NCBI GenBank assembly: GCA_000092065.1
Contig: CP000583.1
Strand: one strand, 5' to 3'
From: Ostreococcus lucimarinus
Taxonomy: Eukaryota
DNA: 64,000 nucleotides
The notes under the pieces are model-generated. The model was not told the origin of the DNA, made no database searches, and worked only from the letters and a program-made list of their open reading frames with translations. Shown here piece after piece: positions 22,860 to 55,990 of this stretch; within the stretch, counting starts at the first letter, position 1; each line of letters starts with the position of its first letter. Both the position numbers and the translations under genes were made by a program.

Positions 22860-24177
22860 CTAGCGCTGGCTAAGAGCGCGCGCGGGCGGCGGCGGTTGGG
22901 ACGCGCGCTCGCGAACGACGCGACGCTTGCGAACGCAGCCGCAACAGGAGGTTTCCTCCTCGACGGTTTCGACGAACGGCGACGGGTCGCTCGGACCCGG
23001 TGCGGTCGGCGCGGGATCGCTCGCGGGATTGAGCTCGGACGCGGCGTCGGCGTGGAGCTTGGCGCGGGCTTTGGCGGCCCATCGGTCGAGGGATCGCGCG
23101 CGCGCGAACGGCTTGGCCGCGTCGTCGGCGGCGTTCGTCGTCTCGGCGTTCGTGGTGGTGGTGGTGGTGGTGGTGGTCGTCGATCCATCGGTGAGATCGA
23201 GCTTCGTTCGCGCGACTGGGGTATCCAGAAACGACAGCGCGCGCGGCGTCGCGGGCGCGCGCGCGTCCGCGGTCGCCGGTGCGAACTCGAAGCTCGCGTC
23301 CGCGTCCTCCGTCGGCGTCGCCGCCGGCGTTCGTCGTTTGTTCTCGCTCACCGCGCTCAGCTCGTTCGGCACCAATCGCTCGCTCATCGTCTCACGCTCG
23401 CTCACGGACGCCCTGCCGTCCCCCGGGCGGTTCAAAGGCGTCGCGCCCTCGCCCCGCCGTCGAACCGACGCGTGCGCCTTGACGCGCTGCGCCTCGACGC
23501 GCGCCGCGTACGCGTCGTACTCCTCCAACGCCGCCGACCCATTCTTCGCCACGTACGCGTGAAACCATCGCAATAAATTATTATTTTCCTACGTTCGCAA
23601 ACGCCCCCCGCGCGGTCGATCGATCGATCGTCAGTCGCGCGTTCGCTCGCGCTCGCGCCTCGCGCTCGAATCCCAACCGCCTCGACTCGCCCGCGCGTCG
23701 TCGTCGTCGCCCGATCCGATCCCCGTCTTCACCGACGCCGTCCATCGCCCCCAAACGCGAGCGCGACTTCCATCCCACGCTTCCCGCGCCTCGCTCGTCG
23801 CGTCGCGTCGTCGTTTCGCGCACCGTGAACTTCCCCTTGGCCAACGCGTCGAAATCCACGTCGACGCGCGTCCCGAGCGCGCGCATCGTCTGCGCCAGCA
23901 CCCGCACGTTCCGCTCGTTATCCCCGACGAACCGCGCGTTGAAATCAAACCTATGCAGCGGCACCTTCCCCGGGTGCATCGCGTCGAGCAGCTGCGCGTA
24001 CGCGACGCCGTCGCCGCACTCTTGCACCGAGGCGTAATCGCTCCGAAGCGCGCGATTGAGCCACGCGACGAGCTCGAGCCGTCCCATCGAGCGCGACGTC
24101 GACGCCGTCGTCGTCGTCGCCGTCGGCGTCGTCGCGCGCGCGGCGCTCGCGCGTCGTCGCGTCGCGGGCGTCGACAT
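22860..24177 (-). CDS. EB1-family microtubule plus-end binding protein (CH domain); exons 23824-24177 and 22860-23588
   Basis: Exon 1 carries the CH domain (MGRLELVAWLNRALRSDYASVQECGDGVAYAQLLDAMHPGKVPLHRFDFNARF…LAKGKFT). Donor GTGCGC lies after codon T118, with intron 23589-23823 (acceptor cgTAG). Exon 2 continues ENNNLLRWFHAYVAKN…EEYDAYAARVEAQ, colinear with EB1 ([33 protein letters not shown]). The C-terminal part of exon 2 is low-complexity, so the true 3' end is uncertain. Confidence 0.6.
23589..23823 (-). other. Intron (GTGCGC donor), phase 0
   Basis: Splicing restores EB1 colinearity across two ORFs. Confidence 0.5.
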
Positions 24178-24219
24178 CGTCGTCGAGGAGTGACGCGGAC
24201 GCCATTCGCGCGCGCCACC

Positions 24220-24740
24220 ATGGCGAGCGCGCGCGGGTTCTGCGAACGCTGCGGCGCGCGCCTGCGGCTGACGACGCGCGCGCCCGACGTGCGGTGCGAC
24301 GCGTGCGGCAGGGCGCGCGCGCTCGAGGACGGTGCGACGCCGACGCGACGACGGACGAAGCGGCGGCGGCGAGGAAAAGCGACGAAAAGAAAGACGCGAC
24401 GCGACGCGACGCGACGCGACGCGACGACGGTGAACGCGGACTGACGACGCGCGATGACCGCGATGACGCCGCAGCGTTCGGGGACGGCGAGCGCGAGCTC
24501 ACGGCGGGGGCGAGGGAGTTTAAGTTTCATCACGGCGTCGAGGCGAGACATCCGAACGGGACGCGCGTGGGCGCGACGGAGGAGGTGACGCGAGAGCGCG
24601 CGACGGTGGACGAAAAGTGTCCGAAATGTAAGCATAAGGGGTTAAACTTTTACACGATGCAGTTGAGGAGCGCGGATGAGGGGCAGACGGTGTTTTATGA
24701 GTGTCCGAAGTGCTCGCACACGTTTTCGCAAAACAACTGA
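24220..24740 (+). CDS. DNA-directed RNA polymerase I subunit A12.2 (RPA12/ZNRD1-like); exons 24220-24331 and 24475-24740
   Basis: N-terminal zinc ribbon FCERCGARL…RCDACGRA is present. The C-terminal TFIIS-type ribbon KCPKCKHKGLNFYTMQLRSADEGQTVFYECPKCSHTFSQNN is nearly identical in pattern to yeast A12.2. A 143-nt intron (GTGCGA…ccgcAG, phase 1) removes a basic low-complexity stretch and joins the two frames, giving a protein of about 123 aa. Confidence 0.6.
24332..24474 (+). other. Intron (GTGCGA donor, CAG acceptor), phase 1
   Basis: Inferred from the frame change between the two zinc-ribbon ORFs and the expected A12.2 length. Confidence 0.45.
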
Positions 24741-24915
24741 GCGCGGGGACGAGGCGAGGCGACGCCGTGTAGTAAAAGTAGCGACGAAATTTTGTCAGTG
24801 ACGCATCGAAAGCGCGTGGTAGCTCATCGAAAGCGCGACGCGCGCGGTAAAAAAGGTGTGTGAGTGATTTTTACAGCGGGAAGAGAGCGCGTGTTCGCGT
24901 CGACGTCGTCGTCGC

Positions 24916-25368
24916 CTACTCCGGGTTACCCCAACTATTGACAACCTTGCACGAACCGTCGCCACCGTCGGGTCCGTACTGACGCCAGCCCGCGCTTCCT
25001 TCCTTGTAAAAGGCGCTCGCGTCGGTGCCGGTACCGTCGGCCAAGGATGCGTCGCATCCGTTCGCGTTCCCGCTCGAACCGATGTGCCACAAGTCGCTCG
25101 TCCAGTACTTGTTGACGCCGTCGCACTCGAATTCCCCGTCGCATTCCTCCTTGACGTGCTTCCAATCCGTCGCTTCGTCGTTGATGTTCGCCTTGTAGAA
25201 CAAGCACGACAACAACCACGTATCCTTGCGACAATACCGCGTCGCTCCCGACGCCGGAACTTGCGCGTGCGCCGCCGCCGCCAAATCGACCGCGCCCGAC
25301 TGCGCCATCGCCGCCGCGTCCGCCGCCATCTCCTGACCGAACTGTTGCATCGGTTCCTGTCCCAGCAT
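24916..25368 (-). CDS. Hypothetical small secreted Cys-containing protein
   Basis: The ORF C-terminal 150 aa start with an Ala-rich hydrophobic N-terminus (MAADAAAMAQSGAVDLAAAAHAQVPA), then …CRKDTWLLSCLFYKANINDEATDWKHVKEECDGEFECDGVNKYW…SCKVVNSWGNPE. No family was recognised. The upstream part of ORF 24916-26307 overlaps the sulfotransferase gene antisense and is rejected. Confidence 0.3.
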   Translation of the reverse strand: MLGQEPMQQFGQEMAADAAAMAQSGAVDLAAAAHAQVPASGATRYCRKDTWLLSCLFYKANINDEATDWKHVKEECDGEFECDGVNKYWTSDLWHIGSSGNANGCDASLADGTGTDASAFYKEGSAGWRQYGPDGGDGSCKVVNSWGNPE

Positions 25369-25852
25369 CGCGATCGAGCGCCACGAGCCCCTTTCTTCGC
25401 GCTCACCGACGCACATCAAGCTAAACTTTGACGCGTGTCCGCACGCGTCCAGGTGCGCGTCCCTCGTCAGCCCCCTCGGCGCCGCCAGCGCGAACCGCGA
25501 GCTCCCGAGCGCGGCCTCGCTCGACGTCCAACCGCGACCTCTCGCGTACTGCGCTCCATTCAGCGCCAAGCTCGCGACGAGCGCGCCCGACAGCGCCCCG
25601 ATCGTTCGTCGCGCGGTCGACCCGCGATTTTGGTGTTCGCGCCCTTCGCCCTCGCTCGCCACGTCCAATCGCAGCGACGCGTCGTCGGCCGCGCGCAGCA
25701 GGCTCCCGCGTTCGTCTTCGCTCATGTCTGCGCGCTTCGCGTCGCGTTCGCGCGCTCGCGCGTTCGCGCGCGCGCGTTTCTGCCGATCGGCTCTGACTTT
25801 TAGTGTTGGCGCGACGGTGCCGTCGGCGACCGACCGCGGCACATCGCGCGGC

Positions 25853-27022
25853 ATGGCGACGCCGACGGTGATCGAGTGCCGCGTGCGCGGCGCGTACTGG
25901 CACGTGAAAAACCACCCGATGTCCGGCGTCACGCTCGTCGGGTGGGCGAGGACGCTCTGGGCGCACGGACGGTCGATCGATGCGGTGGCGTTCGCGCCGA
26001 GGCTGATGTTTCTGACGTGCATGGCGCTCGCGAACACGCTGGCGGCGATCGCGGACGGCGCGCTGCGCCCGAGGTGGGGTCGGACGAAAGTGCGAGACGA
26101 CCCGGTGTTCGTGCTGGGACATCCGAGGACGGGGACGACGCACTTGCATAATATATTGGCGAAAGACGAGACGCGCTTCGCCGCGGCGACGACGTTCGAC
26201 GTCGGGTTTCCGAGCGGGTTTCTCTCGAGCGGGTTCGTGAAGCCGTACCTGGCGAAAATGATGGATTCGACGAGACCGATGGATAACATGGCGCTGACGA
26301 TGGACACGCCGCAGGAGGACGAGCTGGCGACGAATCAATTGAGCGGGTGCGCGTCGCCGTACGCGCCGCTGATGTTTATGCGAGACGAGGCGAAATTTCG
26401 CAAGTATTACGAGCTTCGAGAGGATCACGACGAGTATCCCATCGAGCGCGCAGAGCTGGAGGCGTGGAAATCGGCGTTCATGACGTTCATGACAAAGTTG
26501 CAGTACAAGCACGGGGAGCACAAGCGGTTGGTGTTGAAGTCGCCCGTGCACGCGGCGCGCGTCGAGGTGCTTCGCAAACTCTTTCCGCGAGCGCAATTCG
26601 TGTTCATTTCTCGTCACCCGTACGATGTTTTCAGATCTGCGGTAAACATGGCGGACAAGTACTACTGGCAGTGCTTTTTGCAACGCCCCACCGTGGCGGA
26701 CGTGCAGGAATTCATCCTCAAGCAGGGAGAAATTTTACACGACGCGTACGTGCGAGACTCGAAGTCGCTCCCGCGCGAAGCCTTGTTTGAGACGCGATTC
26801 GACGATCTCGACGCCGATCCCGTGGGCACGTTGTCGAAAATTTATAAACATTTCGGATGGGATGGATTCGACGAAACGGTCGCGCCGGTGTTGAAGGAAT
26901 ACGCGACGTCGCTCGCCGACTTTAAAAAGAATAGCTTTGCCGAGCTCTCCGACGACGCCAAGGAGGTGATCAACAGTCGCTGGGCGCGCTGGTTCACCGA
27001 CTTGAACTACGAGAAACGATAG
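25853..27022 (+). CDS. Sulfotransferase-family protein (PAPS-binding 5'-PSB GHPRTGTT and 3'-PB RHPYDVFRS motifs)
   Basis: Motifs VFVLGHPRTGTTHL and …FVFISRHPYDVFRSAV… are present. ATG at 25853 (M44 of the ORF). Confidence 0.7.
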   Translation: MATPTVIECRVRGAYWHVKNHPMSGVTLVGWARTLWAHGRSIDAVAFAPRLMFLTCMALANTLAAIADGALRPRWGRTKVRDDPVFVLGHPRTGTTHLHNILAKDETRFAAATTFDVGFPSGFLSSGFVKPYLAKMMDSTRPMDNMALTMDTPQEDELATNQLSGCASPYAPLMFMRDEAKFRKYYELREDHDEYPIERAELEAWKSAFMTFMTKLQYKHGEHKRLVLKSPVHAARVEVLRKLFPRAQFVFISRHPYDVFRSAVNMADKYYWQCFLQRPTVADVQEFILKQGEILHDAYVRDSKSLPREALFETRFDDLDADPVGTLSKIYKHFGWDGFDETVAPVLKEYATSLADFKKNSFAELSDDAKEVINSRWARWFTDLNYEKR

Positions 27023-27062
27023 CGCTGTAGCGTAGAAATAACAGTAGAAAGAAGATTGCTCA

Positions 27063-27746
27063 TTAAAGGAGCTTTTTCCGCTCAAAGAAACCCTTGAGAT
27101 AGACGATTTGCCAGACGCACATCCCGACGCACACGCTCAGGCTCAGCACGCTCAACCACGCGACTTTCGCGTTCGTCGATTCATTCATATCGCGCATCTC
27201 CGCCTCTAACGCTCGCAAATTCAACATACCATCGTGCACTTCTCTCAAATCCGCCTCTAACGCCCGCAACGTCCGCGTAAACGCGTCCAAATCCGTCGCC
27301 TTGGCCAGGCTCTTCCACTCCGTCGCCGCGACGCCGTGTTTCCAATCTACGCGCACCCTGTGCTTCGCCAGCGCCGCAGCCTTCGCCTTTTCGTCCCCCA
27401 GCGACGTCAACTCCGGTTTATAAAAGCACGCTCGGTGTTCTCCCTCCGTCTCGCTCGTGAATCCGTGCCTTCCGCTCGTCGCGTCGTTCTTCTCCCACGC
27501 CACCTTCCCCTTCGCGTCGAACACCTTCACGCTCACCTCATCTCCCTCCATCACCGTCTCGAACGCGAACAGCACCACCGCGTTCGCGTGTATGTCTTCG
27601 CTCACGCACTTCATGTCGTCGTACGCGCCGTCGCCGCGGTGCACCAGATCGATCTCCAGCGCCGTCGCCGTCGTCGTCGAAATCATCATCATCATCGCCC
27701 CACCGACGACCGCGGACGCGATCGACGCGCGTCGCGCGCGCGCCAT
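27063..27746 (-). CDS. p24/emp24/GOLD-family cargo receptor (TMED)
   Basis: A signal peptide, GOLD domain, coiled coil, single TM and C-terminal tail …YLKGFFERKKLL (COPI/COPII sorting motif) are present. ATG at 27746. Confidence 0.8.
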   Translation of the reverse strand: MARARRASIASAVVGGAMMMMISTTTATALEIDLVHRGDGAYDDMKCVSEDIHANAVVLFAFETVMEGDEVSVKVFDAKGKVAWEKNDATSGRHGFTSETEGEHRACFYKPELTSLGDEKAKAAALAKHRVRVDWKHGVAATEWKSLAKATDLDAFTRTLRALEADLREVHDGMLNLRALEAEMRDMNESTNAKVAWLSVLSLSVCVGMCVWQIVYLKGFFERKKLL

Positions 27747-28469: not shown

Positions 28470-30026
28470 TTACTCCTCGCGCGCGAGCGCGCGCTCGTCG
28501 TCGAAGCGCTCGACGTCGAAGCGCTCGTCGTCGAGCGCGAGCGCGGGCTCGATGCTCGCCGCGGGTTCGAAAAACTCGAGAGCGCGCCACCACAGGTACG
28601 TCACCGCCGCGACGCACCACAACATCTTTCCGAACACGACGCCGCGGCGGTACAGCCTGTAAAGACGCCCCATGAACGTGTCCCACGTGTCGTACGCGCG
28701 GTCGTACGCGAGCTCGACGCGATGGGCGACGTCGTCCCAGTTGTACAACGCCTCGACGCGCTCGTGAATCCGCCACGGATCGGCGCGCGGGAGCGCTTCG
28801 AGACACTCGTCGAGAGCGTCCAGGATGGACTGCACGTCCGGCTTCGCTAAGAACATGATATCTTCTGGTAATACCTCTGGAACGCCTCCCACCGCGGTGG
28901 CGACGACGAGACATCCGCACGACGCCGCTTCGAGGACGGCGATGCAAAACGACTCCGTGAGCGAGGCGTTGAGGAACACGTCGCCTCGACGAAGCACTTC
29001 TGGGACCTTGTCGTGCGACACGCTCCCGAGAATGGTGACGCGCTCGGTCAAACCCGCATCTTCGATCGCCTTCTCCAAATGCTTCCGCATCGATCCATCG
29101 CCCGCGATTAGGAAATCTAAATCGTCGTGCTCGGCGCACGCGAGCGGAATCACCCCCGCCAACAGATGCACGCCCTTGCGATACATCAATCTCGACGTCA
29201 CCACCACCGTCCTGCGTCCTTTCTTCCGCTTCGTCACATCCGGCGTGAATCTCACGGAGTCCACGGCGTTCGGGATGACGCTCACGCGCTCCGGCGCCAA
29301 ACCTGGCTCGCCCCCGAGCAAGTACCCGCTCCGCAAAACCGTATTCTCCTTCGCCGTGTGACTGACGCAAATCGCGTGCTGCGTGTCCGCCAACGTCATG
29401 TCCAATAACTTGTTCGTGTGAATCGCCCCGACGTCCGCGAAACCAAACAACGAGTGATCGGTGAACACGCACTTCATTCCCATCGTTCGCGCGTACAGTA
29501 TGCCCTCGTGCGACATCGTGCACCCTTGGTGCGCGTGCACCAGCGTCACGCCTTCGCGAACGCACGTCTAATTCGAATCAGAATTCGCGCGTCAGTCGAC
29601 GCGAACGAAACGAACGAGCGAACGAAACGAAAGAAACTTCGCGCGCGCGCGTCGCCGTCGCCGTCGTCGTCGTCGTCGTCGTCGTCGTCGCACCTTTCTA
29701 AATAACTTGAACCCGCCGAGAAAATTTGGAAACGTACAGTTGTCGTACATGACCACCCTCGGCACGTGATACACCTTGATCCCGCGCGTGATCCACCGCA
29801 CGCCCACGCGTCCGGGATGCGCGTGCGTGTACACCACCACCTTGTGTCCGCGCGCGCGCAATCTCGCGGCGAGGGCGTAGATGTGGAGCTCGACGCCGCC
29901 GATCGACGGCAGGAAAAAGTCGCTCAGCATCAAGACGCAGTGCTTCCGACGCGCGACGACGGGCGACGACGCCGACGTCGATGGCGCGTCGTCGGCGTCG
30001 TTCGGGGCGCGACGCGCGCGCGTCAT
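28470..30026 (-). CDS. PIG-A (GPI N-acetylglucosaminyltransferase catalytic subunit, GT4); exons 29694-30026 and 28470-29567
   Basis: Exon 1 is …CVLMLSDFFLPSIGGVELHIYALAARLRARGHKVVVYTHAH…FPNFLGGFKLFRK. Donor AAG|GTGCGA follows, with intron 29568-29693 (acceptor aatTAG). Exon 2 is TCVREGVTLVHAHQ…MGMKCVFTDHSLFGFAD…EDIMFLAKPDVQSILDALDE…, colinear with human PIGA including the C-terminal TM. ATG at 30026. Confidence 0.85.
29568..29693 (-). other. Intron (GTGCGA donor), phase 0; contains (GTC)n and GAACGAAAC repeats
   Basis: Splicing restores PIG-A colinearity. Confidence 0.6.
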
Positions 30027-34310: not shown

Positions 34311-34430
34311 TCGAAGACCGACCGCGGGGCGATGATGGGCGACGTCGACGGCGCTCGCGCGGCGCGTTCGTCGCTCAAATTTTATATAACGACCTTGCCG
34401 TCGAAAATTACAACGCTAAACCGTAAGTGA

Positions 34431-35401
34431 TTACCACGGGATCGGACGGAACTCCTCGTCGCTGCCGTCACCGAGCGTCTTTTGCGCGAGCAAGAACGTC
34501 GGGGCGGTGGACAAGAAGGCGATGAAGGCGACGGCTTCGCCGCCGACGGAGCTCGTGAACAAGTTGACGGCTTGCGGGTTGGCCATGTGCGCCTCCAAGC
34601 CCTCCAACGGGGAGAGACCGGTGACGGCGTATTGGGAAACCATACCGAGGAACGCAACCATCGCGAGGCGCGCGTTCTTCACTTCCTTCACGCGCTTGTC
34701 CGGAGCATCGAGTCCAGCCGGGTCGAACGGGAACGCGTTCAACACGCCGGATTCGCCCGACTTCATGAAACCGCGCGTGCGCGCCGCCTCGAGAATGCTC
34801 ATCGCCACGACTTGGAACCCGACGAGCTGTTGGAAGTCCATACCGTAATCCACGGCACCGGCTTCCCACCACTTCGGCAAACCAACCGCGTCGGTGAACA
34901 AAATACCCGCCGTCGCCGCCATGGCCCAGCGCCCGTTCATGAGCTCCGCCTCTTGCAAGTACGGCAGCGTCTCCGGGTTCGCCCCGAGTCGCAACGGGTC
35001 AAAGCCTGCGCGCGCACCGCATCCGTCAGTCACACATCCACGCGCGCCTCCATTCGTCCCGCGTCCCGCCCTCTTCCGCTCGCGTAGGCGCGTCTCCCCG
35101 CGCCGCCGCCCCGCGCGTCCGCCGCCTTCGAATCGCCATCCCAGCCGTATCCGACCGTATCGTATCTCCCATCGCCCGCCATCGCGCGCGTCCTCGCGCG
35201 TCGCTCGCGTCGCGCACCGTAATCGCCGGCCATCGTCCCATCGAGATATTTCGGCGCCACCGCTCCCGGGTACCACAGCTCGCGGTCCGCGTTCGCCGCG
35301 CGCGCGGCGACGCGCGCGCGCGGCGCGCGCGTCGTCGATCGCGCGTCGACGATCGTCGCGCGGTTCGCGATGGCGTGTCGAGCCGTCGTGAGGGAGAACA
35401 T
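34431..35401 (-). CDS. Light-harvesting complex protein (FCP/LHC family); exons 35218-35401 and 34431-35005
   Basis: Exon 1 is MFSL…ELWYPGAVAPKYLDGTMAGDYG. Donor GTGCGC (phase 1), intron 35006-35217 and acceptor gcgcAG follow. Exon 2 is FDPLRLGANPETLPYLQEAELMNGRWAMAATAGILFTD…KNARLAMVAFLG… (helices 1 and 3 with conserved E/R). There is an extra C-terminal hydrophobic segment GEAVAFIAFLSTAPTFLLAQ. Confidence 0.8.
35006..35217 (-). other. Intron (GTGCGC donor), phase 1
   Basis: Splicing creates the canonical GDYGFDPLRLG junction. Confidence 0.6.
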
Positions 35402-35712
35402 CGCGTTCGTCGGGTGTTCGCGCGCGAGAATTTACGCGTTCACGGGTCCGTCGTCGTCGACGGGTGCGCGCGGCTCGTGCGAGGCGCGGGCGTGTGAAGA
35501 CGCGCGCGCGTCCGCGCGCGGCGCGCGCCAATCCGCGCGCGCGATCCGTCGCGATGGATGGGCCGCGTTCGCGTTTGATCGCCTTCGCGCGCGCTCGAAT
35601 ACGGGGGATTCGAATACGCGCGCGGCTGAGTGTCCGTGTGTGAGACGCACCACGATTGAGACGCCGCGCGGCATCGCGACCGCGGACCGCGACGCCGTCG
35701 CGGCGCGGCGCG

Positions 35713-37257: not shown

Positions 37258-37330
37258 ATCGGTATTATGTATCAACACAACATTAACTAGGTGTAGTCAA
37301 AGTAGCTTGTAGCGCAGCGCGTCAAATTAT

Positions 37331-38733: not shown

Positions 38734-40116
38734 ATGTCGCGCGCGGACGCTCGAAACGCGTACGACGCCATCCTCGACGCGCGCACGCGCGACGCGGCGT
38801 CGATGGAGCGGTTCGCCGCGCTCGCGACGGCGCCGAGCGCGGTGCCGCGCGCCGCCGTCGAAGCGGTCGTCGACGCGGGCGCGCGCGCGGCGCTCGTCGA
38901 CGTGCGCTCGCCGGGAGAGCACGCGCGAGGACGCGCGCCGCGCGCGATAAACGCGCCGCTGTTCGATGACGACGAACGCGCGGCGGTGGGGACGGCGTAC
39001 AAGACGAGAGGACGAGGCGAGGCGCTGGTGCTGGGGATGGCGGCGGCGGCGCCGCGGTTGGAGGCGATCGTGGAGCGCGCGAAGCGAGCGGTGGAGACGG
39101 TGGCGACGACGCGAGGGAACGGTGACGGCGAAGACGATGGTGAGATTGATGTGTACGTGATGTGCTTTCGAGGAGGGATGCGGAGCTCGTGCGTGGGGTG
39201 GTTGTTGAAGGAACGGTTGCGCGGCGCGAGAGTCCACGTGGTCGAGGGCGGATACAAGGCGTTTCGGAGGTGGGCGCTCGAGCGGTGCGGACCGACGCGC
39301 GGATTGCCCGCGCCGAGGGTGTGCGTCGTCGGTGGACGCACGGGGGTGGGGAAGACGCGCGCGCTGTTGGCGCTGCGCGCGAAAGGGGAACAGATTATCG
39401 ATTTAGAGGGGTTGGCGAACCACGCCGGGAGCGCGTTCGGGTGGGTCGGGCGAGAGCCGCAGCCGACTTCGGAGCACTACTCTAATTTAGTCGCCTGCGA
39501 GTGGCACGCGTTGGATGCGAGCAGATGGGTGTTCATCGAGGATGAGGGACCGCACGTCGGGCGGTGCTCGGTGGATCCGTTGTTGTTTGAGCGCATGCGA
39601 AACGCTCCTCTGGTGCTTCGCATGGTCGCCCCGCGCGAGGTGCGGTTGCACACTTTAGTGGAAGATTACGCGACGTCAGAGTTGCGTTCTCATCCGGAAT
39701 GGATGCCCACAATGCGTGAAAGCGTCGATAAGCTCGTCAAGCGGCTCGGTGGCGACCGCGTGCGCGACATTCGAGAAAAGCTCGAAGCCGGCGATTTCAC
39801 CGCCGTCGCCGAAGGTTTGCTCGAGTATTACGACGGTTTGTACGACAAGCACCTCATGAGCAAGCGCAAAGACCGTCGCGCGGCGCGGGCCGCCAACGCC
39901 AACGCCGCCAACGCCAACGCCAACGACGACGCGTGTTCGGTGCAATCCTTCACGTCGTCCACCACCGAAGACGAGGCCCGAGCCGGCGTCGTCGTCGACG
40001 TCAACTGCGTCGCCAACGCCTCGGGTGGCCTCGACGAGGACCTTCTCGTCCGCGATGTTCTGTGCGCCGTCGCTCTGTTCGAATGCGAAGGACCGAACGA
40101 CCCCGAACGCGCGTAG
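38734..40116 (+). CDS. selU: tRNA 2-selenouridine synthase (SelU/MnmH/YbbB-type: rhodanese domain plus P-loop)
   Basis: The protein aligns along its whole length with E. coli SelU. Matches include VDVRSPGEH…AINAPLFDDDERAAVGTAYK, rhodanese Cys MCFRGGMRS, GGYKAFRRWA, P-loop VVGGRTGVGKT, DLEGLANHAGSAFG and LLEYYDGLYDKHL. ATG at 38734. Confidence 0.85.
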   Translation: MSRADARNAYDAILDARTRDAASMERFAALATAPSAVPRAAVEAVVDAGARAALVDVRSPGEHARGRAPRAINAPLFDDDERAAVGTAYKTRGRGEALVLGMAAAAPRLEAIVERAKRAVETVATTRGNGDGEDDGEIDVYVMCFRGGMRSSCVGWLLKERLRGARVHVVEGGYKAFRRWALERCGPTRGLPAPRVCVVGGRTGVGKTRALLALRAKGEQIIDLEGLANHAGSAFGWVGREPQPTSEHYSNLVACEWHALDASRWVFIEDEGPHVGRCSVDPLLFERMRNAPLVLRMVAPREVRLHTLVEDYATSELRSHPEWMPTMRESVDKLVKRLGGDRVRDIREKLEAGDFTAVAEGLLEYYDGLYDKHLMSKRKDRRAARAANANAANANANDDACSVQSFTSSTTEDEARAGVVVDVNCVANASGGLDEDLLVRDVLCAVALFECEGPNDPERA

Positions 40117-40270
40117 TCGATTCGATTCGCGTCTCGTCTCGAGCGCCGACTCGAGGCTGACTCAGCACGGTCGTGCCGACACGCTTTGCAATAATCCACG
40201 CGCGAGTTCGTCACAAACGCGCGCGTCTCACGCACGTTCGAACGCGCGAACGCTCAAATCCACGAAAAAG

Positions 40271-40696
40271 ATGTTCTCTCTGTCCTCTACCGCCGCTCTC
40301 GCCCGCGCGCGCGTCTCGGCGCCGCGTAAAACCGCGCGAAAGTTGACGATTCGCGCCTCCGTCAACTACATTCTCGATCGCGAGGGATGTTCGAGCGCGC
40401 GGTCCGACGACGACGGCGCGCTGCTCCAGACGGCGGCGAAGACGTGCCTGGCGGTTCCGATCGACGTGAACGCGCTCGTGGCGCAAAATAAGGGTGACTT
40501 GGAGTTTGAGAACGAGCAGTTGAAGTTTGAGCTCGACGACTCGAGCGCGCTCGTCGTGCAATCGCTCAAAGGCAAAACTCTGATCGACGGGAAAGCGGCG
40601 CCCAAGGGACGAAAATTGAAACTTCGCGCGGGATCGAAGATTAAGATCGCCGACGAGGAATTCACGGTGTATCGAAACACGCACGCGCACGCGTGA
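40271..40696 (+). CDS. Small FHA-domain-like protein with presequence
   Basis: A 141-aa ORF starts MFSLSSTAALARARVSAPRK… It ends with FHA-like strands (…LKGKTLIDGKAAPKGRKLKLRAGSKIKIADEEFTVYR). Confidence 0.4.
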   Translation: MFSLSSTAALARARVSAPRKTARKLTIRASVNYILDREGCSSARSDDDGALLQTAAKTCLAVPIDVNALVAQNKGDLEFENEQLKFELDDSSALVVQSLKGKTLIDGKAAPKGRKLKLRAGSKIKIADEEFTVYRNTHAHA

Positions 40697-40996: not shown

Positions 40997-42814
40997 TCAG
41001 ACGCGCAGGACTTTGACGACGCCGTTTGAGTTCGCGGCGACGAGCACGGATTCATCGCTTCGCCACGCGCACGCGCTGATGAAACCGCGAGGTTCGTTCG
41101 CGTCCCGAGCGAACCCGATGGACGCGATGGGCGACGAAAGATCCTTGCGGTAAATGAATACCTCGTTCGTTTCGCTCCCGCACGCGACGTGGTCGCCGAC
41201 GGCGGTGAGGCCGACAAAGTTTCGTTCGTTGACGTGTCCTTTGAGCGCGCACGTGAGTTCGCCTGTGTTGACGTTCCACACGTTGATGGTGTTATCCGTC
41301 GATGCGCTCGCGATTTCGTTGGCGTTGAGGTACTTGACGTAACTGACCGCCTTGCGATGGCTGTCGAGGATTTGCACCGGCTCGGCCAAGCGTCGCAAAT
41401 CAAAAATATACACCTTTTGGTCGACGCAACCGACCGCGATGCAATGCGCGTTCTCGGGTGAATACTGCGCACAGCAGACGTTCGCTTTCATGTCGATCTC
41501 GTGCACGCTGTTCGGTTGATCGGTGTTCCAAATCTTCACCAAGTAATCATCCGAGCCACTCACTAAAAGTCGCGGATCCGTGCGACAGTAGTCAACGGTC
41601 CAGATTCGCTTTTCATGCTCCTCAAAATCTATGATGCTGCACTTTTTCTCGACATCCCACACCGAAACGACACCTTCGTAATCACTCGCCGCTATGTGAT
41701 GCTTAACAAACTTGTTGTAAGACAAGCACGTCAGCTTGGACCGAGTGTTGATTTCATCCGCGGGTTGCTGTGACCCCTCGAGCACGTGCTCGAGGTTGTA
41801 AAACTGAATTCGTTTGGACACACCTGCGGTAGCGAAGTACTCTTGCGTCGAATCGAACTCAATGCTGCTGACGGGCGCGCCTGGGTTTGACGCGTCTTCT
41901 TCGCCGCGAATCTCCGCCGCGATGGAAATGTTCGAGTATCGTTTAAACGTGTCAATAATCGTCGAAAACTCCTCCATAGTCGTCGAGTCCGGGGCGTACC
42001 CTCGACCACCATTGAGCGCGCTACCACTCGACTTACCACCATCGCTGGTGACATCGTCTCGTTCTGCGCTTCTTCTCTTGGAATACCAGCTCTGCAATTC
42101 GCTAAACTGCCTCAACACTCTGCGTCGCTTCGACTCGTCGATGACGATTTGCGACTCACCCGGCCGCGTCAAACCCAGCGCTTCCATCGCGTGCGCGATC
42201 ACTTCTTTATCGTGCAAATCACTACGTTCGTGCGACACTCGTGCACCGCCACCCAAGGCCTCAATTTCCCTTCGCACCGCGTCGATGTCGGCGTCTAAAC
42301 ACCTCAACTCTCGCTCGAGCGCCACCGCGCTCGCCTGCTTCCTCGCTCGGCTCTCTACTAAGAACTCCTTCAACACCTCTCGCGACACTGCGCGTGATTC
42401 CAGCACCAAACTTCGATGTTTCTCGCTCAAAGTCTTCACCAAAGGTGTCAATCGTTCCAAATCGTCTTCGCCGTCCTCGGCGCTCGTCGAAGCCGCCGCC
42501 GCTTCGCTCGCCCCTGACTTCATAGCCGCAACCATCGCGTTCACCGCCGCATTTGGCACTAACTGTGCGCTGGTAAACATCGACGAGCATGTCGGGCACC
42601 GAGCGCTCACCCCGGCGTCCGCGCCGCCGTCTCGGGGCGCCGCCGCCGCCGCGTCGAGCGCCGCGCTCGCGCACCCGTGACAAAACGTGTGTCCGCACGT
42701 CGCCACGCAGTGCGCGTCCGTGAACGGTTCGAGACATATCGGACACGTAACGTGTGCGAGCATTGCTGACGTCGCGCGCGCGTGCGCGCCTCGCGGTAGC
42801 GTTAACGCCGACAT
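40997..42814 (-). CDS. COP1/RFWD2-like E3 ubiquitin ligase (RING, coiled coil, WD40)
   Basis: RING CPICLEPFTDAHCVATCGHTFCHGCA…CPTC is present. A coiled-coil region and C-terminal WD40 repeats (…LVSGSDDYLVKIWN…) follow. ATG at 42814. Confidence 0.8.
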   Translation of the reverse strand: MSALTLPRGAHARATSAMLAHVTCPICLEPFTDAHCVATCGHTFCHGCASAALDAAAAAPRDGGADAGVSARCPTCSSMFTSAQLVPNAAVNAMVAAMKSGASEAAAASTSAEDGEDDLERLTPLVKTLSEKHRSLVLESRAVSREVLKEFLVESRARKQASAVALERELRCLDADIDAVRREIEALGGGARVSHERSDLHDKEVIAHAMEALGLTRPGESQIVIDESKRRRVLRQFSELQSWYSKRRSAERDDVTSDGGKSSGSALNGGRGYAPDSTTMEEFSTIIDTFKRYSNISIAAEIRGEEDASNPGAPVSSIEFDSTQEYFATAGVSKRIQFYNLEHVLEGSQQPADEINTRSKLTCLSYNKFVKHHIAASDYEGVVSVWDVEKKCSIIDFEEHEKRIWTVDYCRTDPRLLVSGSDDYLVKIWNTDQPNSVHEIDMKANVCCAQYSPENAHCIAVGCVDQKVYIFDLRRLAEPVQILDSHRKAVSYVKYLNANEIASASTDNTINVWNVNTGELTCALKGHVNERNFVGLTAVGDHVACGSETNEVFIYRKDLSSPIASIGFARDANEPRGFISACAWRSDESVLVAANSNGVVKVLRV

Positions 42815-43110
42815 GCGCTCACGCTGACGTCACACGAATCACGTCAGAGATATCCGACGTGCGCGTCGCGTTCTAGCGTCTGTGAAGCGTGTGCGCGCGC
42901 TCGAAGCGGCGCACGTTCGTGTTTGGACGCACTCAAACGCGCTCGAGCGTCGCGTTCGAGGCGCGCGGCGAGGTTTGAGGCTGTGCTCACACTCGCCGCC
43001 GTCGCGACGCTTTTTCGTCGACGCGACGCGGTTGTGACTAGGCTACGCTCGCTACATCATACGCTATTGGTGCTAGGACACACTACGATGCGCGCGGTAA
43101 ACGGAATATA

Positions 43111-44247
43111 TCAACGAGGAATCTTCCTGCACTCGACCAATCGATCGCGGATGTCGTCCCAAAATGCTGCCTCCTCGGCGTCTGCGTCTGCGTCGACGCC
43201 GCGCTCGCGAATAAGCTCGAACCTACTGTCACGACGGTAAGCGACGGATGCGAACGTGATCGTTCGCGTTCGCACCTTCGTGCCTTCGCTTCTGTGGATG
43301 CTCTCCACGATGTCTGGGCGTACCCAATCCGCACCGAGACGCAGGACACCCTTGAATCGCGCGACGTCGACGCGTCGCAACACAAACTCTTCAAAAAACG
43401 CCTTCAACTTCGGTCGCACGAAGACGTCGTCGACGTGAAACGCGTATCCACACGAGGCGTATCGATCACTTTCCTGCTTCACCATCCAAGGCGGCGCGTT
43501 GGCGGTGAGGCGCGGCTCCAAAGTGAACGGTCTCGAGCTCGTCGTCGTCGTCGTCGTCGTCGTCGCCTCGGTCGGGAGCTCGCTCGGCTCCCACCCGCAT
43601 CGACCATCGAGAAGCGCCAAATCCATCCCATTCGCGCGATCACGCGCCAAAAACACAGCACTCTTCTTCGGCCAAAACCCACGCCCGAACGCCAAGAACG
43701 CCTCCACCTCTGCCTCGCTCGCGGCGTCCGCGAACGACCCGCACATCGCGTCTGCGCACTCCGTCTGCGCCTTGAACAATTCCGACCGCAACACCGCCGC
43801 TTTCCCTTCGTCTTCCCCGAAAACCCGCACATCGACCACACAAATCGTCGCTCGCACGTCCACGCTCGCTTCCAGGTGTTCCGATCGCAGCGCGTCGATC
43901 ACGCGTCCCGCGTCGCCCATCCCGCTCGGCTCCACGAGCACGCGCGCCGGTCGATACCGCCGCAGCACCTGCGTCACCGCCACCACGAACGGCGCCGCCG
44001 TCGCGCAGCACGCGCACCCTCCCGACACCTCTCGAACGATCGTCCTCCCACTCGCGTCCGCGTCGCGCTCGCGCGTTCCCACCGCGTCATCGAGCAGCGC
44101 CCCGTCGATGCCCAGCGCACCGAAATCGTTCACCACCACCGCCCACGTCTCGTTCGCCGGCTTCGCGCTCGCCAGCGCGCGCAGAACGTGCGTCGTCTTC
44201 CCCGCGCCGAGCGCGCCGGTGATGACGTTCACCGGCGTGCGCGCCAT
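43111..44247 (-). CDS. CobW/COG0523-family GTPase (zinc metallochaperone-like)
   Basis: GALGAGKTT, VNDFG and SGGCACC (CxCC) motifs and a CobW_C-like C-terminus are present. There is an internal poly-Thr from (GTC)n. ATG at 44247. Confidence 0.75.
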   Translation of the reverse strand: MARTPVNVITGALGAGKTTHVLRALASAKPANETWAVVVNDFGALGIDGALLDDAVGTRERDADASGRTIVREVSGGCACCATAAPFVVAVTQVLRRYRPARVLVEPSGMGDAGRVIDALRSEHLEASVDVRATICVVDVRVFGEDEGKAAVLRSELFKAQTECADAMCGSFADAASEAEVEAFLAFGRGFWPKKSAVFLARDRANGMDLALLDGRCGWEPSELPTEATTTTTTTTSSRPFTLEPRLTANAPPWMVKQESDRYASCGYAFHVDDVFVRPKLKAFFEEFVLRRVDVARFKGVLRLGADWVRPDIVESIHRSEGTKVRTRTITFASVAYRRDSRFELIRERGVDADADAEEAAFWDDIRDRLVECRKIPR

Positions 44248-44297
44248 GCGTCGTCGAGTGTCACCGCGCGCGCCTCGCTCGGCACGCCTCGGCGCGC

Positions 44298-45221
44298 ATG
44301 CGCGTCGCCGCCGCCGCGGCCGCGGACGCGCGCGCCGCGTGCGTCTCCACGATGTGCCCGCGGATCGACGACGCGCTGCGCGGGGGCGTGCGCGCGCGCC
44401 ACGTGACGGAGATCGCGGGCGAGAGCGCGAGCGCGAAGACGACGCTGTGCGCGCAGCTCGCGGTGCGCGCGACCGCGCGCGGCGGCGCGGCGGTGTACGT
44501 GCACACCGACGGGCCGGCGCCGACGGCGCTGATGCGACGGATCGCGTCGTCGGCGCGGTTCGTCGCGGAAGCGTGCGACGGGGACGAAGACGCGGCGACG
44601 GCGGCGCTGGAGCGCGTGTACGTGGTCAAGGCGCTGGGCGACGCGGACGCGCTGCGAGAGACGCTGACGGCGGTCAGCGCGGTCCTCAGAGCGCCGGTGA
44701 GCGAAGACGCGGTGGTGAGGATGATCGTGGTGGATTCGATCGCGGCGCCGTTTCGAGACGACGCGACGAACGGAGGATGGACGTACGCGGCGAAACGGGC
44801 GGGCGCGCTGCACAAGTTGACGATGCTGTTGAAGGAGTACGCGACGAAACACGACGTGGCGGTCGTCGTGACGAATCACGTGGTGGATAGCGTGAGAGAA
44901 AATGGAACCGGAGCGCACGGTGACGGCGCCGTGGCGACGCGGGCGATGGGGGAGTTCACGACGAGCGGACGACGAGTGGTGCCGGCGCTCGGTTTGATGT
45001 GGTCGAATTGCGTCAACGCGCGATTGTTTCTCACGAGACGCGCGACGCGCGGTCAAGGGTACGTCGTGGGCGGTGATGACGGCGATGATGGAAACGCGGG
45101 CGTCGCGCGGACGTTACACGTCGTGTACGCGCCGCATTTGCCCGAGTCGAGCGTCGATTTCGTCGTGCGCGAAGACGGCGCGTGGGACGTCGCCGCGCCG
45201 CGCCCGCGCGCCGTGGCCTAG
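44298..45221 (+). CDS. RAD51 paralogue (XRCC3/RAD51C-like RecA-fold ATPase)
   Basis: Walker A GESASAKTT and Walker B MIVVDSIAAPFR are present in a RecA-like core. ATG at 44298, 50 bp from the divergent CobW start. Confidence 0.65.
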   Translation: MRVAAAAAADARAACVSTMCPRIDDALRGGVRARHVTEIAGESASAKTTLCAQLAVRATARGGAAVYVHTDGPAPTALMRRIASSARFVAEACDGDEDAATAALERVYVVKALGDADALRETLTAVSAVLRAPVSEDAVVRMIVVDSIAAPFRDDATNGGWTYAAKRAGALHKLTMLLKEYATKHDVAVVVTNHVVDSVRENGTGAHGDGAVATRAMGEFTTSGRRVVPALGLMWSNCVNARLFLTRRATRGQGYVVGGDDGDDGNAGVARTLHVVYAPHLPESSVDFVVREDGAWDVAAPRPRAVA

Positions 45222-45265
45222 CGCACGCGTACCGCGCGCTACGCGCGGCGCGTGTACGATAGTAG

Positions 45266-45350
45266 TGAATGAATGAATGAATGTGTTAGCGAATGATTGT
45301 ATTTTTATCGTCGGATTGACGAACGAACGAACGAACGAACGACCGAACGC
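45266..45350. repeat. (GAAT)4 followed by (GAACGAAC)n simple repeats upstream of UBA3
   Basis: Read directly from the sequence. Confidence 0.7.
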
Positions 45351-45435
45351 GTTCGCGTCGGTTACGCCGCACTCTCACCCTCGACGTTCCAAAATTCCTC
45401 TCGACGCCCCCGCCGTCGAGCCTCCCGCCGAGGCG

Positions 45436-46825
45436 ATGTCTCGCCTCGACGTCGATTTCTGCGTCGACGAACGCGCGCGCTGGCGCTCCATCGACGCGCT
45501 TTTACTTCGCCGTGGGAGATTCACCGGTCCAGATTTTGAGCCGGGAGAAGACGTCGCGCGCGTGCTCCGCGAGCACGTCCGCGTGCTCGTCGTCGGCGCC
45601 GGAGGACTCGGGTGTGAACTGTTGAAAGGGCTCGGTGCGTGACGACGGCGCGAGAGACGCGCGGACGTTGGTGGTGATGAAGGACGCGCGACTGACGAGA
45701 CGAACGCGACGACGCCGCGCAGCGCTGAGCGGATTCACGACTCTGGACGTGATCGATATGGACACGATCGACGTGACGAATTTAAATAGACAGTTTTTGT
45801 TTCGCGCGGAGGACGTGGGGAAGAGTAAGGCGGAGACGGCGGCGAGACGAGTGCGGGAACGCGTGCGCGGGTGCGCGGTGAACGCGCATCACGGACGAAT
45901 AGAAGAGAAAGAGGATGGGTGGTATAAACAGTTTGATATCATCGCTCTGGGATTGGATTCTCTGGAAGCGCGGGCATACATCAACGCGGTGTGCTGTGGG
46001 TTCTTGGATTACGACGAGGATGGGAACGTGGATCCGGCGACGATTAAACCGCTCGTGGACGGCGGTACGGAGGGATTCAAGGGACACGCGCGCGTCATCG
46101 TTCCGGGAATGACACCGTGTTTCAATTGCACAATGTGGCTGTTCCCTCCGCAAACGACGTTTCCGTTGTGCACGCTGGCAGAGACGCCGAGGAACGCAGC
46201 GCACTGCATTGAATACGCAAAATTAATTCAGTGGCCGGCGGAGCGATACGGGGAGACGTTTGACGCGGATGTCGTCGAGCACATGACGTGGGTGTACACG
46301 AAAGCGCTCAAACGCGCCGAGACATTTGGTATTCCAGGCGTAACGTACGCTCACACGCAAGGTGTGACGAAGAACATCATTCCGGCGATTCCTAGCACGA
46401 ACGCAATCATAGCCGCGGCGTGCGTCATCGAAACGTTGAAAATGGCGACGATGTGCGCCAAGGGAATGAACAATTACATGATGTACGTGGGCACGGATGG
46501 TGTGTACTCGCACACTGTGGAGTACGAACGCGATCCATCGTGCGTGGTGTGCTCACCCGGGATCGCTCACGCGTTGAACGCGAACGCGACACTCGAAGAA
46601 TTCATGGCTTCCATCGTCGCCGCGTATCCAGATTCTCTCGCCGAACCGAGCGTGAGTTTCGGCGGGAAAAATCTGTACTTGCGCGGCGTGCTCGAGTCCG
46701 AATTCGCGGAAAACTTGAATAAACCTATGATTGAGCTCATGAATGGGCGCAAAGAAGGCTTAGTCGTGGTGAATGACAAGAAAATGAAGAAGACGTCGAT
46801 GCGGTTGCGACTGTCGTTAAAATGA
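45436..46825 (+). CDS. NEDD8-activating enzyme E1 catalytic subunit (UBA3); exons 45436-45634 and 45723-46825
   Basis: Exon 1 is …FTGPDFEPGEDVARVLREHVRVLVVGAGGLGCELLKGL. Donor g|GTGCGTGA and an 88-nt intron (acceptor gcgcAG) follow. Exon 2 is ALSGFTTLDVIDMDTIDVTNLNRQFLFR…PLVDGGTEGFKGHARVIVPGMTPCFNCT… The spliced junction LLKGLALSGF matches human UBA3 exactly. Confidence 0.85.
45635..45722 (+). other. Intron (GTGCGT donor, CAG acceptor), phase 1
   Basis: Splicing gives the conserved LLKGLALSGF junction. Confidence 0.7.

Positions 46826-55956: not shown

Positions 55957-55990
<34 letters not shown>

What the first reader, a model, noticed from the sequence alone, without database searches (positions are those of the whole stretch)
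23589..45722. Six ORF-splitting short introns, five of which use a GTGCG(A/C/T) donor
Manual reconstruction of EB1, RPA12, PIG-A, LHC and UBA3 each required one short intron (88-235 nt) whose donor is GTGCGC, GTGCGA, GTGCGA, GTGCGC and GTGCGT respectively, with (C/T)AG acceptors. Only the F-box gene uses the textbook GTAAGA. Each splice restores near-perfect colinearity with orthologues. Examples are the junctions LLKGL|ALSGF in UBA3, GDYG|FDPLRLG in LHC and FKLFRK|TCVREGVTLVHAHQ in PIG-A. A GTGCG donor consensus in a very GC-rich genome means generic gene finders trained elsewhere will systematically split genes here.
Basis: partly seen in the sequence, partly recalled or inferred. Interest (0 to 1): 0.5.

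Follow-up and report, generated by a model that had tools for sequence, protein, structure and literature searches.

The report
Known GTGCG-donor introns of Ostreococcus lucimarinus
The six short introns are real, but they are ordinary spliceosomal introns of the green picoalga Ostreococcus lucimarinus, whose unusual GTGCG donor and GACTGACG branch-site consensus was published for this genome in 2008.

Summary
All six coordinates carry the stated donor and acceptor, and each splice restores an open frame.

The window comes from Ostreococcus lucimarinus CCE9901. Five of the six spliced models (RPA12, LHC, UBA3, the EB1-like protein and PIG-A) are identical to annotated NCBI proteins. For RPA12, LHC and UBA3, public assembled contigs that look like transcripts lack exactly the proposed intron. 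The F-box-like intron has no annotated protein and no transcript evidence. It is supported by conserved position and a conserved exon 2 in two syntenic relatives.

They are G-rich, mostly T-poor and lack a polypyrimidine tract. The window holds at least two more GTGCG introns, in a 63-aa COX7a-like gene that exact look-up did not find. It also holds a probable 5'UTR intron.

Irimia and Roy (2008) reported GTGCGTG and GACTGACG as the consensus for O. lucimarinus introns outside chromosome 2. Later papers report the same donor in Micromonas and an unchanged U1 snRNA pairing region in Mamiellales. Verdict: real, ordinary, already known.

The parts
23589..23823 (-). Intron of the EB1-like CH-domain gene (exon 1 23824-24177 or from M31; exon 2 22860-23588). 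Donor ACG|GTGCGC, branch site CGACTGACGA 42 nt from the 3' splice site, acceptor TAG. 235 nt, phase 0.
   Evidence: The spliced protein from M31 is identical to XP_001417057.1. It aligns without a gap across the junction to the human EB1 CH domain, E = 8e-17. The orthologous intron in L014 sits at the same position with GTGCGA, GGACTGACGA and TAG. No transcript contig was found.
24332..24474 (+). Intron of the RPA12 (Pol I subunit) gene (exon 1 24220-24331; exon 2 24475-24740). Donor ACG|GTGCGA, branch site GGACTGACGA 30 nt from the 3' splice site, acceptor CAG. 143 nt, phase 1.
   Evidence: The spliced 125-aa protein equals XP_001416763.1. Contig L010 joins 24331 directly to 24475. It aligns end to end with S. 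pombe RPA12, E = 3.5e-21. The L014 ortholog has GTGCGT and TGACTGACG.
29568..29693 (-). Intron of the PIG-A gene (exon 1 29694-30026; exon 2 28470-29567). Donor AAG|GTGCGA, branch site CGACTGACGC 24 nt from the 3' splice site, acceptor TAG. 126 nt, phase 0.
   Evidence: The annotated O. lucimarinus protein P0044 (444 aa, from M33) contains the same junction FKLFRKTCVREG. The Pfam PIGA domain is complete (1-90/90) across the junction. The ortholog L020 has an intron at the same position, with donor GTGTGT and branch site GAGACTGACGG. No transcript contig was found.
35006..35217 (-). Intron of the LHC (chlorophyll a/b-binding) gene (exon 1 35218-35401; exon 2 about 34450-35005). Donor ACG|GTGCGC, branch site TGACTGACGG 20 nt from the 3' splice site, acceptor CAG. 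212 nt, phase 1.
   Evidence: The spliced 252-aa protein equals XP_001417062.1. Eight mRNA-sized contigs, L002-L009, from different sequencing runs join 35218 to 35005; the protein is indexed in 68 blocks of the collection.
45635..45722 (+). Intron of the UBA3 (NEDD8 E1 catalytic subunit) gene (exon 1 45436-45634; exon 2 45723-46825). Donor TCG|GTGCGT, branch site CGACTGACGA 27 nt from the 3' splice site, acceptor CAG. 88 nt, phase 1.
   Evidence: The spliced 433-aa protein from M54 equals XP_001416771.1. Contig L001 joins 45634 to 45723.
9003..9093 (+). Intron of the F-box-like gene (exon 1 about 8365/8479-9002; exon 2 9094-9439). Donor CAG|GTAAGA, branch site TGACTAACA 24 nt from the 3' splice site, pyrimidine-rich tail, acceptor TAG. 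91 nt, phase 2. Its signals differ from the GTGCG class.
   Evidence: Exon 2 is conserved at the protein level and the intron sits at the identical position in syntenic L011 (GTTCGT..TGACTGAC..TAG, about 64 nt) and L012 (GTAAGT, about 57 nt). No annotated protein was found and no spliced junction in the metagenome scan.
14774..15007 (+). Donor AAG|GTGCGA, branch site CGACTGACGA 37 nt from the 3' splice site, acceptor CAG.
   Evidence: Pfam COX7a hit at E = 2.7e-4, just under the curated cut-off. A 98%-identical intron-less copy exists in contig L019. Intron 1 is at the same position in L011 and L012, both with GTGCGT.
15123..15271 (+). Additional GTGCG intron: intron 2 of the COX7a-like gene. 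Donor AAG|GTGCGC, branch site AGACTGACGA 31 nt from the 3' splice site, acceptor CAG.
   Evidence: It is precisely absent from L019. It is also absent from the L011 and L012 orthologs, which instead have an intron after KKGG(V/T).
22264..22656 (-). Probable 5'UTR intron of the C2H2/RidA-domain gene (annotated start ATG 22190). Donor GAG|GTACGG, branch site TGACTGACGA 18 nt from the 3' splice site, acceptor CAG. 393 nt.
   Evidence: The annotated 991-aa protein XP_001417056.1 starts downstream of it. The L014 ortholog has GAG|GTGCGC..(about 380 nt)..TGACTGACGA..CAG about 60 nt upstream of its ATG. This rests on signals and conservation only; there is no transcript.

Best explanation
These are ordinary U2-type (GT-AG) spliceosomal introns. 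They belong to the 'canonical' intron class of Mamiellophyceae, in the Ostreococcus lucimarinus CCE9901 nuclear genome.

This intron-poor genome has converged on unusually strict splicing signals:
- an exon ending in G;
- donor GTGCG(N);
- an extended branch site GACTGACG, 20-42 nt upstream of a YAG acceptor in this window;
- a G-rich intron body, T-poor in most cases, with no polypyrimidine tract.

Shown here: the signals, restoration of the reading frames, identity to annotated proteins, and precise absence of three introns from public assembled contigs that look like transcripts.

Inferred from established spliceosome knowledge and the literature: recognition uses the standard machinery. 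The U1 5' end would pair with G-1, G+1, U+2 and G+5, with a wobble at +3 and a mismatch at +4C. The strong U2:branch-site pairing (ACUGAC, with one G.U against the U2 GUAGUA box) and the fixed branch-to-acceptor distance probably carry much of the specificity.

The F-box-like intron (GTAAGA, ACTAAC, pyrimidine-rich tail) is a real intron that does not follow the GTGCG consensus.
For: Organism and annotation. Spliced RPA12, LHC and UBA3 are exact matches to O. lucimarinus XP_001416763.1, XP_001417062.1 and XP_001416771.1. The EB1-like protein from M31 equals XP_001417057.1. PIG-A from M33 equals P0044.

Contig evidence. L001 for UBA3, L002-L009 for LHC and L010 for RPA12 each lack exactly the proposed intron.

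Colinearity. Human EB1 and S. pombe RPA12 align across the junctions. The Pfam PIGA, Chloroa_b-bind and ThiF domains span the junctions.

Signals. All five GTGCG introns have GACTGACG 20-42 nt from the acceptor. The composite signal occurs 7 times against 1.1 expected. Binomial P is about 7e-7 for 5 of 6.

Conservation. Orthologous introns sit at the same positions in divergent lineages.

Literature. PMC2483917 reports GTGCGTG and GACTGACG for O. lucimarinus introns outside chromosome 2, with 87% containing ACTGAC and 66.5% GACTGACG. PMC3879977 reports AG|GTGCGT and NCTGAC in Micromonas. bioRxiv 10.1101/2022.06.08.495308 reports GYGCGY donors in Mamiellales with a standard U1 pairing region.
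Against: The EB1-like and PIG-A junctions rest on annotation, homology, signals and orthologous conservation; I found no contig spanning them. The F-box-like intron has no transcript and no annotated protein.

Whether the Logan contigs come from RNA was not checked against run metadata. It is inferred from their mRNA-like size and intron-less structure.

Orthologous introns do not always keep GTGCG: GTGTGT in L020, GTACGC in L012 and GTACGG at 22656. The consensus is strong but not obligatory.

The snRNA pairing scheme is inference. No snRNA gene lies in the window.
Confidence: 0.95

Rival explanations
1. The interruptions are not introns. They are frameshifts, assembly errors or pseudogene lesions, and the GT..AG ends were picked by eye from many available GT and AG dinucleotides.
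For: GTGCG is frequent in this 61% GC sequence (321 copies), so a suitable donor can often be found near any frame break.
Against: Independent contigs lack exactly these intervals for three genes. All five also carry GACTGACG at a fixed distance from the acceptor. Orthologs in diverged lineages are interrupted at the same codon, with different intron lengths and sequences.
Confidence: 0.01
2. The introns are copies of a mobile intron family (introner elements, as in Micromonas pusilla CCMP1545). The shared GTGCG and GACTGACG would then reflect common descent rather than selection on splicing signals.
For: Micromonas introner elements IE-A1 and IE-A2 use AG|GYGCGT donors, and IE-C carries GACTGACG (PMC3879977). 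The same paper suggests that some 'canonical' introns may be decayed introner elements.
Against: All-against-all BLAST of the nine introns finds only short, low-complexity matches (15-52 nt, E >= 3e-5 in a tiny database) and the branch motif itself. Intron positions are shared with diverged Ostreococcus lineages, so the introns are old. Introner elements were reported absent from the other published mamiellophycean genomes.
Confidence: 0.03
3. The atypical donor is read by a co-evolved U1 snRNA, or a second spliceosome, with a pairing region complementary to GUGCG.
For: Irimia and Roy raised this possibility in 2008. Co-evolved U1 snRNAs exist in Entamoeba, and in Mastigamoeba for a GUGCGC donor.
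Against: [quoted passage not shown] I could not test this: no snRNA gene is in the window.
Confidence: 0.03

Closest known systems
Canonical (non-chromosome-2) spliceosomal introns of Ostreococcus lucimarinus, as described by Irimia & Roy 2008 (PMC2483917)
   Same: Same genome. Same donor consensus (GTGCG, then T/A/C, then G in 4 of 7). Same extended branch site GACTGACG. GT-AG ends and short length.
   Different: Nothing substantive. The window adds individual examples. Position +6 is more variable here (A, C or T) than the published GTGCGTG logo suggests.
Canonical introns of Micromonas RCC299 and CCMP1545 (Verhelst et al. 2013, PMC3879977)
   Same: AG|GTGCGT donor preference and an NCTGAC branch motif.
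   Different: In Micromonas the branch motif lies 43-52 nt from the acceptor, against 18-42 nt here. The last exon bases here are often CG rather than AG (4 of 9).
Low-GC outlier-region (chromosome 2 / BOC1) introns of Mamiellophyceae
   Same: The F-box-like intron shares the more typical GTRNGT-style donor reported for that class.
   Different: BOC1 introns are described as numerous, small, AT-rich and without a discernible branch motif. The F-box-like intron is 91 nt, 52% GC, has a clear TGACTAAC branch site, and sits among GTGCG-type genes.
Mastigamoeba balamuthi GUGCGC donors with a compensating U1 (bioRxiv 10.1101/2022.06.08.495308)
   Same: Nearly the same donor hexamer.
   Different: There the U1 pairing region changed to ACGUAC. 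In Mamiellales it is reported unchanged.

Membership tests
U2-type GT-AG spliceosomal introns | GT at the 5' end and AG at the 3' end, with removal restoring the reading frame | tested here: met
   for all six introns; for the three additional ones.
U2-type GT-AG spliceosomal introns | Precise absence from mature transcripts | tested here: met
   Met for RPA12, LHC and UBA3. For the two COX7a-like introns there is an intron-less 98% copy. No contig was found for the EB1-like, PIG-A or F-box-like introns. The RNA origin of the Logan contigs is inferred, not checked.
Mamiellophyceae canonical intron class (Ostreococcus non-chromosome-2 type) | Donor consensus GTGCG(T) | tested here: met
   Five of the six claimed introns and seven of nine in the window. 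The F-box-like intron (GTAAGA) and the 5'UTR candidate (GTACGG) deviate.
Mamiellophyceae canonical intron class (Ostreococcus non-chromosome-2 type) | ACTGAC or extended GACTGACG branch motif shortly upstream of the acceptor | tested here: met
   GACTGACG is present in all five claimed GTGCG introns, 20-42 nt from the acceptor, and in the three extra introns. The F-box-like intron has GACTAAC.
Mamiellophyceae canonical intron class (Ostreococcus non-chromosome-2 type) | Located in the normal-GC, intron-poor part of the genome | tested here: inconclusive
   The window is 60.6% GC with about 35 genes and about 9 introns, which fits the intron-poor compartment. The identity of the 982,987-bp chromosome was not established with these tools.
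Introner elements (Micromonas IE families) | Sequence similarity among many introns of the same genome | tested here: not met
   Only short low-complexity matches among the nine window introns. Genome-wide clustering is not possible with these tools.
U12-type (minor spliceosome) introns | RTATCCTT donor and TCCTTAAC branch site | tested here: not met
   The donors are GTGCGN or GTAAGA and the branch sites are GACTGACG or GACTAAC.
BOC1 / chromosome-2 low-GC introns | Very short, AT-rich, no discernible branch motif | tested here: not met
   The introns are 88-235 nt and 52-74% GC, and every one has a clear branch motif.

The most novel reading that the evidence does not exclude
Two signal classes of intron coexist in the normal-GC compartment. 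One is the strict class: GTGCG, GACTGACG, purine-rich. The other is a minority 'textbook' class: GTAAG, ACTAAC, with a polypyrimidine tail. The F-box-like intron is the example of the second class. Its donor drifts freely between lineages (GTAAGA, GTAAGT, GTTCGT, possibly GCAAGA) while its branch site stays fixed. Together with the lineage-specific intron replacement in the COX7a-like gene, this would give a small natural system for asking how one spliceosome with a standard U1 serves two signal sets. It would also allow asking whether branch-site recognition, not donor recognition, is the dominant determinant in this genome.
Probability: 0.15. Interest if true: 0.3.

Novelty: already known. 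Interest (0 to 1): 0.1.

Why it matters
There is little new biology here. The atypical donor and branch-site consensus of Ostreococcus and other Mamiellophyceae has been in the literature since 2008, and the reference annotation already contains five of the six introns.

The practical value is limited to three points:
- Intron-unaware gene callers applied to marine metagenomes produce truncated Ostreococcus proteins that populate public protein databases.
- For two small intron-containing genes in this window, the F-box-like and the COX7a-like, I found no annotated O. lucimarinus protein.

Tried and rejected
1. Exact look-up of full-length EB1 (360 aa), PIG-A (476 aa), long UBA3 (486 aa) and two F-box starts failed. 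For EB1 and PIG-A the only reason was start-codon choice: M31 and M33 match.

2. The look-up of encoding contigs on the NCBI-only proteins P0001 and P0044 returned nothing, so the official gene table around the window could not be retrieved.

3. A metagenome scan for the spliced F-box junction (24-mer) gave 0 hits.

4. An Rfam scan of the window for snRNAs or other RNAs found nothing at gathering threshold.

5. I looked for further missed introns between overlapping same-strand ORF pairs: 38734-40116 with 40025-40696, 50455-51855 with 51806-53005, and 52858-55563 with 55374-56288. I also scanned the overlapping opposite-strand pair 24916-26307 (-) and 25724-27022 (+). Pfam shows unrelated domains (TAP42 and DAO; SUEL lectin and G-patch; sulfotransferase), so these are adjacent genes and not split ones. 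A codon-usage score was too noisy in this GC-rich sequence to serve as a gene finder.

6. Two GACTGACG matches, at 8378 (+) and 29360 (+), lack a usable donor or acceptor and lie inside coding sequence. I treat them as chance.

7. The introner-element idea was rejected for lack of similarity between introns.
Full report
**Observation**

- EB1-like, 23589-23823 (-): GTGCGC..TAG
- RPA12, 24332-24474 (+): GTGCGA..CAG
- PIG-A, 29568-29693 (-): GTGCGA..TAG
- LHC, 35006-35217 (-): GTGCGC..CAG
- UBA3, 45635-45722 (+): GTGCGT..CAG
- F-box-like, 9003-9093 (+): GTAAGA..TAG

The lengths are 235, 143, 126, 212, 88 and 91 nt, as claimed. Read without splicing, each frame stops 74-233 codons from the start used.

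**Identity of the sequence**

An exact-sequence look-up of the spliced models identifies the window as Ostreococcus lucimarinus CCE9901, on a 982,987-bp chromosome.
- Spliced RPA12 (125 aa), LHC (252 aa) and UBA3 (433 aa from M54) are identical to XP_001416763.1, XP_001417062.1 and XP_001416771.1.
- The EB1-like model from its second methionine equals XP_001417057.1.
- The annotated PIG-A protein (P0044, 444 aa, from M33) contains the same FKLFRK|TCVREG junction.

Five of the six introns are therefore already in the reference annotation.

**Transcript-type evidence**

Public assemblies of sequencing runs (Logan) hold contigs in which the intron is precisely absent.
- L001 joins window 45634 to 45723, for UBA3.
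- Eight mRNA-sized contigs, L002-L009, from different runs join 35218 to 35005, for LHC. They start near 35495 and end near 34380. The protein is indexed in 68 blocks of the collection.
- L010 joins 24331 to 24475, for RPA12.

The one- or two-base overlaps in the BLAST coordinates are the expected alignment ambiguity at G|GT..AG|G junctions. I infer an RNA origin from the size and structure of these contigs. The run metadata could not be consulted.

**Homology across the junctions**
- The EB1-like protein aligns to the human EB1 CH domain without a gap at the junction: KGKFTENNNLLRWF against [14 protein letters not shown], E = 8e-17.
- RPA12 aligns end to end with S. pombe RPA12, E = 3.5e-21.
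- The Pfam PIGA (1-90/90), Chloroa_b-bind (1-161/162) and ThiF (18-236/238) matches span their junctions.

Pfam finds no EB1 C-terminal domain in the 'EB1' protein. It finds the F-box only at E = 0.15-0.2. Both names should be read as 'EB1-like CH-domain protein' and 'F-box-like'.

**The F-box-like intron**

This is the only intron without annotation support. The homology search returned only exon-1 ORFs from metagenomic DNA and no NCBI protein. A scan for the spliced junction found nothing.

Comparative evidence supports it. Two syntenic loci from diverged Ostreococcus lineages are interrupted after the same codon (..MPPFYR|). Their introns differ in length and sequence:
- L011: GTTCGT..TTGACTGAC..TAG, about 64 nt
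- L012: GTAAGT..TTTTAG, about 57 nt

In both, a strongly conserved exon 2 follows, ending ..GKTPTYGWYFPFE(S/A)LT... In L011 exon 2 is in a different frame from exon 1.

This intron looks like a textbook intron. It has GTAAGA, TGACTAAC 24 nt from the acceptor, a 70% pyrimidine tail and 52% GC.

All five GTGCG introns also contain the octamer GACTGACG, with the branch A 20-42 nt upstream of the acceptor. They are G-rich (32-50% G). All but PIG-A (23% T) are T-poor (3-11% T). All lack a polypyrimidine tract, with 35-48% pyrimidine between branch site and acceptor.

Half of the ten GACTGACG occurrences in the window fall in these five introns.
- Two lie in a 63-aa COX7a-like gene (CDS 14744-14773, 15008-15122, 15272-15318). 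The introns are 14774-15007, with AAG|GTGCGA, and 15123-15271, with AAG|GTGCGC.
- One is a probable 393-nt 5'UTR intron at 22264-22656 (-), with GAG|GTACGG and TGACTGACGA. It lies upstream of the annotated start of XP_001417056.1. Its donor, branch site and acceptor recur at the equivalent place in the diverged locus L014.

The COX7a-like protein is not in the protein collection by exact look-up. A JGI contig, L019, carries a 98%-identical copy lacking both introns exactly.

**Is it more than chance?**

GTGCG as a word is not enriched: 321 copies against 349 +/- 18 expected from dinucleotide composition. It follows only 4.1% of GT dinucleotides. Five of six gives P of about 7e-7, and seven of nine gives P of about 7e-9. 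The second figure is inflated because I used the motif to find the extra introns.

The composite pattern GTGCG..GACTGACG..YAG occurs seven times against 1.1 +/- 1.0 expected, and all seven are supported introns.

**Conservation of the signals**

In diverged lineages the same intron positions are kept.
- EB1-like in L014: GTGCGA, GGACTGACGA, TAG
- RPA12 in L014: GTGCGT, TGACTGACG
- PIG-A in L020: GTGTGT, GAGACTGACGG
- COX7a-like intron 1 in L011 and L012: GTGCGT

Read-through translations of four EB1-like orthologs all continue with 'VR' after the junction, which corresponds to GTNCGN. The consensus is strong, but GTGTGT, GTACGC and GTACGG variants occur.

**Comparison with what is known**

Irimia and Roy (2008, PMC2483917) analysed this very genome with 560 EST-confirmed introns. 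Outside chromosome 2 they reported the 'atypical consensus GTGCGTG' (4.8 bits). ACTGAC was present in 87.2% of these introns and GACTGACG in 66.5%. Introns in the low-GC half of chromosome 2 preferred GTRNGT and had a weak branch signal.

Verhelst et al. (2013, PMC3879977) report AG|GTGCGT and NCTGAC for canonical Micromonas introns.

A 2022 preprint (10.1101/2022.06.08.495308) describes GYGCGY donors across Mamiellales. O. lucimarinus was among the five genomes it searched. [quoted passage not shown]

The finding is thus a correct rediscovery of a published property.

**Mechanism**

Shown here: these are GT-AG introns, absent from contigs that look like transcripts, with a fixed donor and branch-site architecture.

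Inferred from general spliceosome knowledge and the literature above: standard U1 pairs with G-1, G+1, U+2 and G+5, with a G.U wobble at +3 and a mismatch at +4C. The extended branch site pairs with U2, and the short, fixed branch-to-acceptor distance replaces the polypyrimidine tract as the 3' determinant.

The introner-element alternative is not supported. The nine introns share only low-complexity stretches and the signals themselves, and their positions predate the divergence of the Ostreococcus lineages sampled.

**On 'gene finders will split genes'**

Public metagenome annotations do contain exon-only fragments of every one of these genes. Examples are P0034 and P0031 for the EB1-like gene, P0017 and P0026 for UBA3, P0006 for LHC, P0045 for PIG-A and P0207 for the F-box-like gene. 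Those callers model no introns at all, so this says nothing about the donor hexamer. The JGI/NCBI reference models five of the six correctly.

**Verdict**

The novelty is 'already known' and the interest is low.

Noticed in passing
window 14744-15318 (+): A 63-aa COX7a-like gene (MSDKIVEAQKFFQSRKGF...GRNKKEGF) with a 30-nt first exon and two GTGCG/GACTGACG introns. The exact protein is not in the 15-billion-sequence collection, so it may be missing from the reference annotation. The Pfam COX7a hit is 21.7 bits against a cut-off of 22.1.
   Followed up: partly
window 15123-15271, compared with L011:14655-14784 and L012:15356-15497: Intron turnover in the COX7a-like gene. All three lineages share intron 1 (after ..EAQK). 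The window has its second intron after ..MLAK. L011 and L012 instead have one after ..KKGG(V/T) and none at the window's position.
   Followed up: partly
window 22264-22656 (-): Probable 393-nt 5'UTR intron (GAG|GTACGG .. TGACTGACGA .. CAG) upstream of the annotated ATG (22190) of the C2H2/RidA-domain gene XP_001417056.1. The same arrangement, with a GTGCGC donor, occurs in the diverged locus L014:3273-3656. Its length is a multiple of 3 and it has no stops, so prokaryotic callers extend the ORF through it (1111-aa variants such as P0193).
   Followed up: partly
window 9003-9004; protein P0207: An environmental relative (98% aa identity; cluster of 65 sequences) reads ..FYRQESVKDF.. through the F-box-like intron. 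This implies CAA where the window has TAA, so a GC (GCAAGA) donor replaces GT at this intron.
   Followed up: no
L019:1-3950: The intron-less COX7a-like copy sits at the end of a 4.2-kb JGI contig. The rest of the contig (50-55% GC) encodes an ELYS-like nucleoporin domain protein and another ORF that do not match the window. The window match begins only 9 nt upstream of the ATG. This could be a chimeric metatranscriptome contig or a retrocopy; it is unresolved.
   Followed up: partly
window 24104-24220: The EB1-like and RPA12 genes are head to head, with start codons 43 nt apart (24177 on the minus strand, 24220 on the plus strand). The RPA12 contig L010 begins at 24104, inside EB1-like exon 1. 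The two transcription units therefore overlap or share a very short bidirectional promoter.
   Followed up: no
introns listed in parts; window-wide: GTGCG-class introns are strongly strand-asymmetric on the sense strand (G 32-50%; T 3-11% in all but PIG-A, which has 23%), with GACG/GCGACG-type low-complexity runs. The F-box-like intron is compositionally balanced.
   Followed up: partly
L001:1-279: The UBA3 contig starts with an Illumina adapter fragment and 279 nt of unrelated low-GC sequence. It is a chimeric assembly, which is a caution when using such contigs beyond the region that matches the window.
   Followed up: yes
window 22860-23588 (-): The C-terminal two thirds of the EB1-like protein is low-complexity, with a run of 10 threonines, and Pfam detects no EB1 C-terminal (EBH) domain. 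It is conserved only among Ostreococcus-like sequences (44-51% identity in P0036-P0041), ending in a conserved ..VETVEEET(S/T)CCGC.. motif.
   Followed up: no
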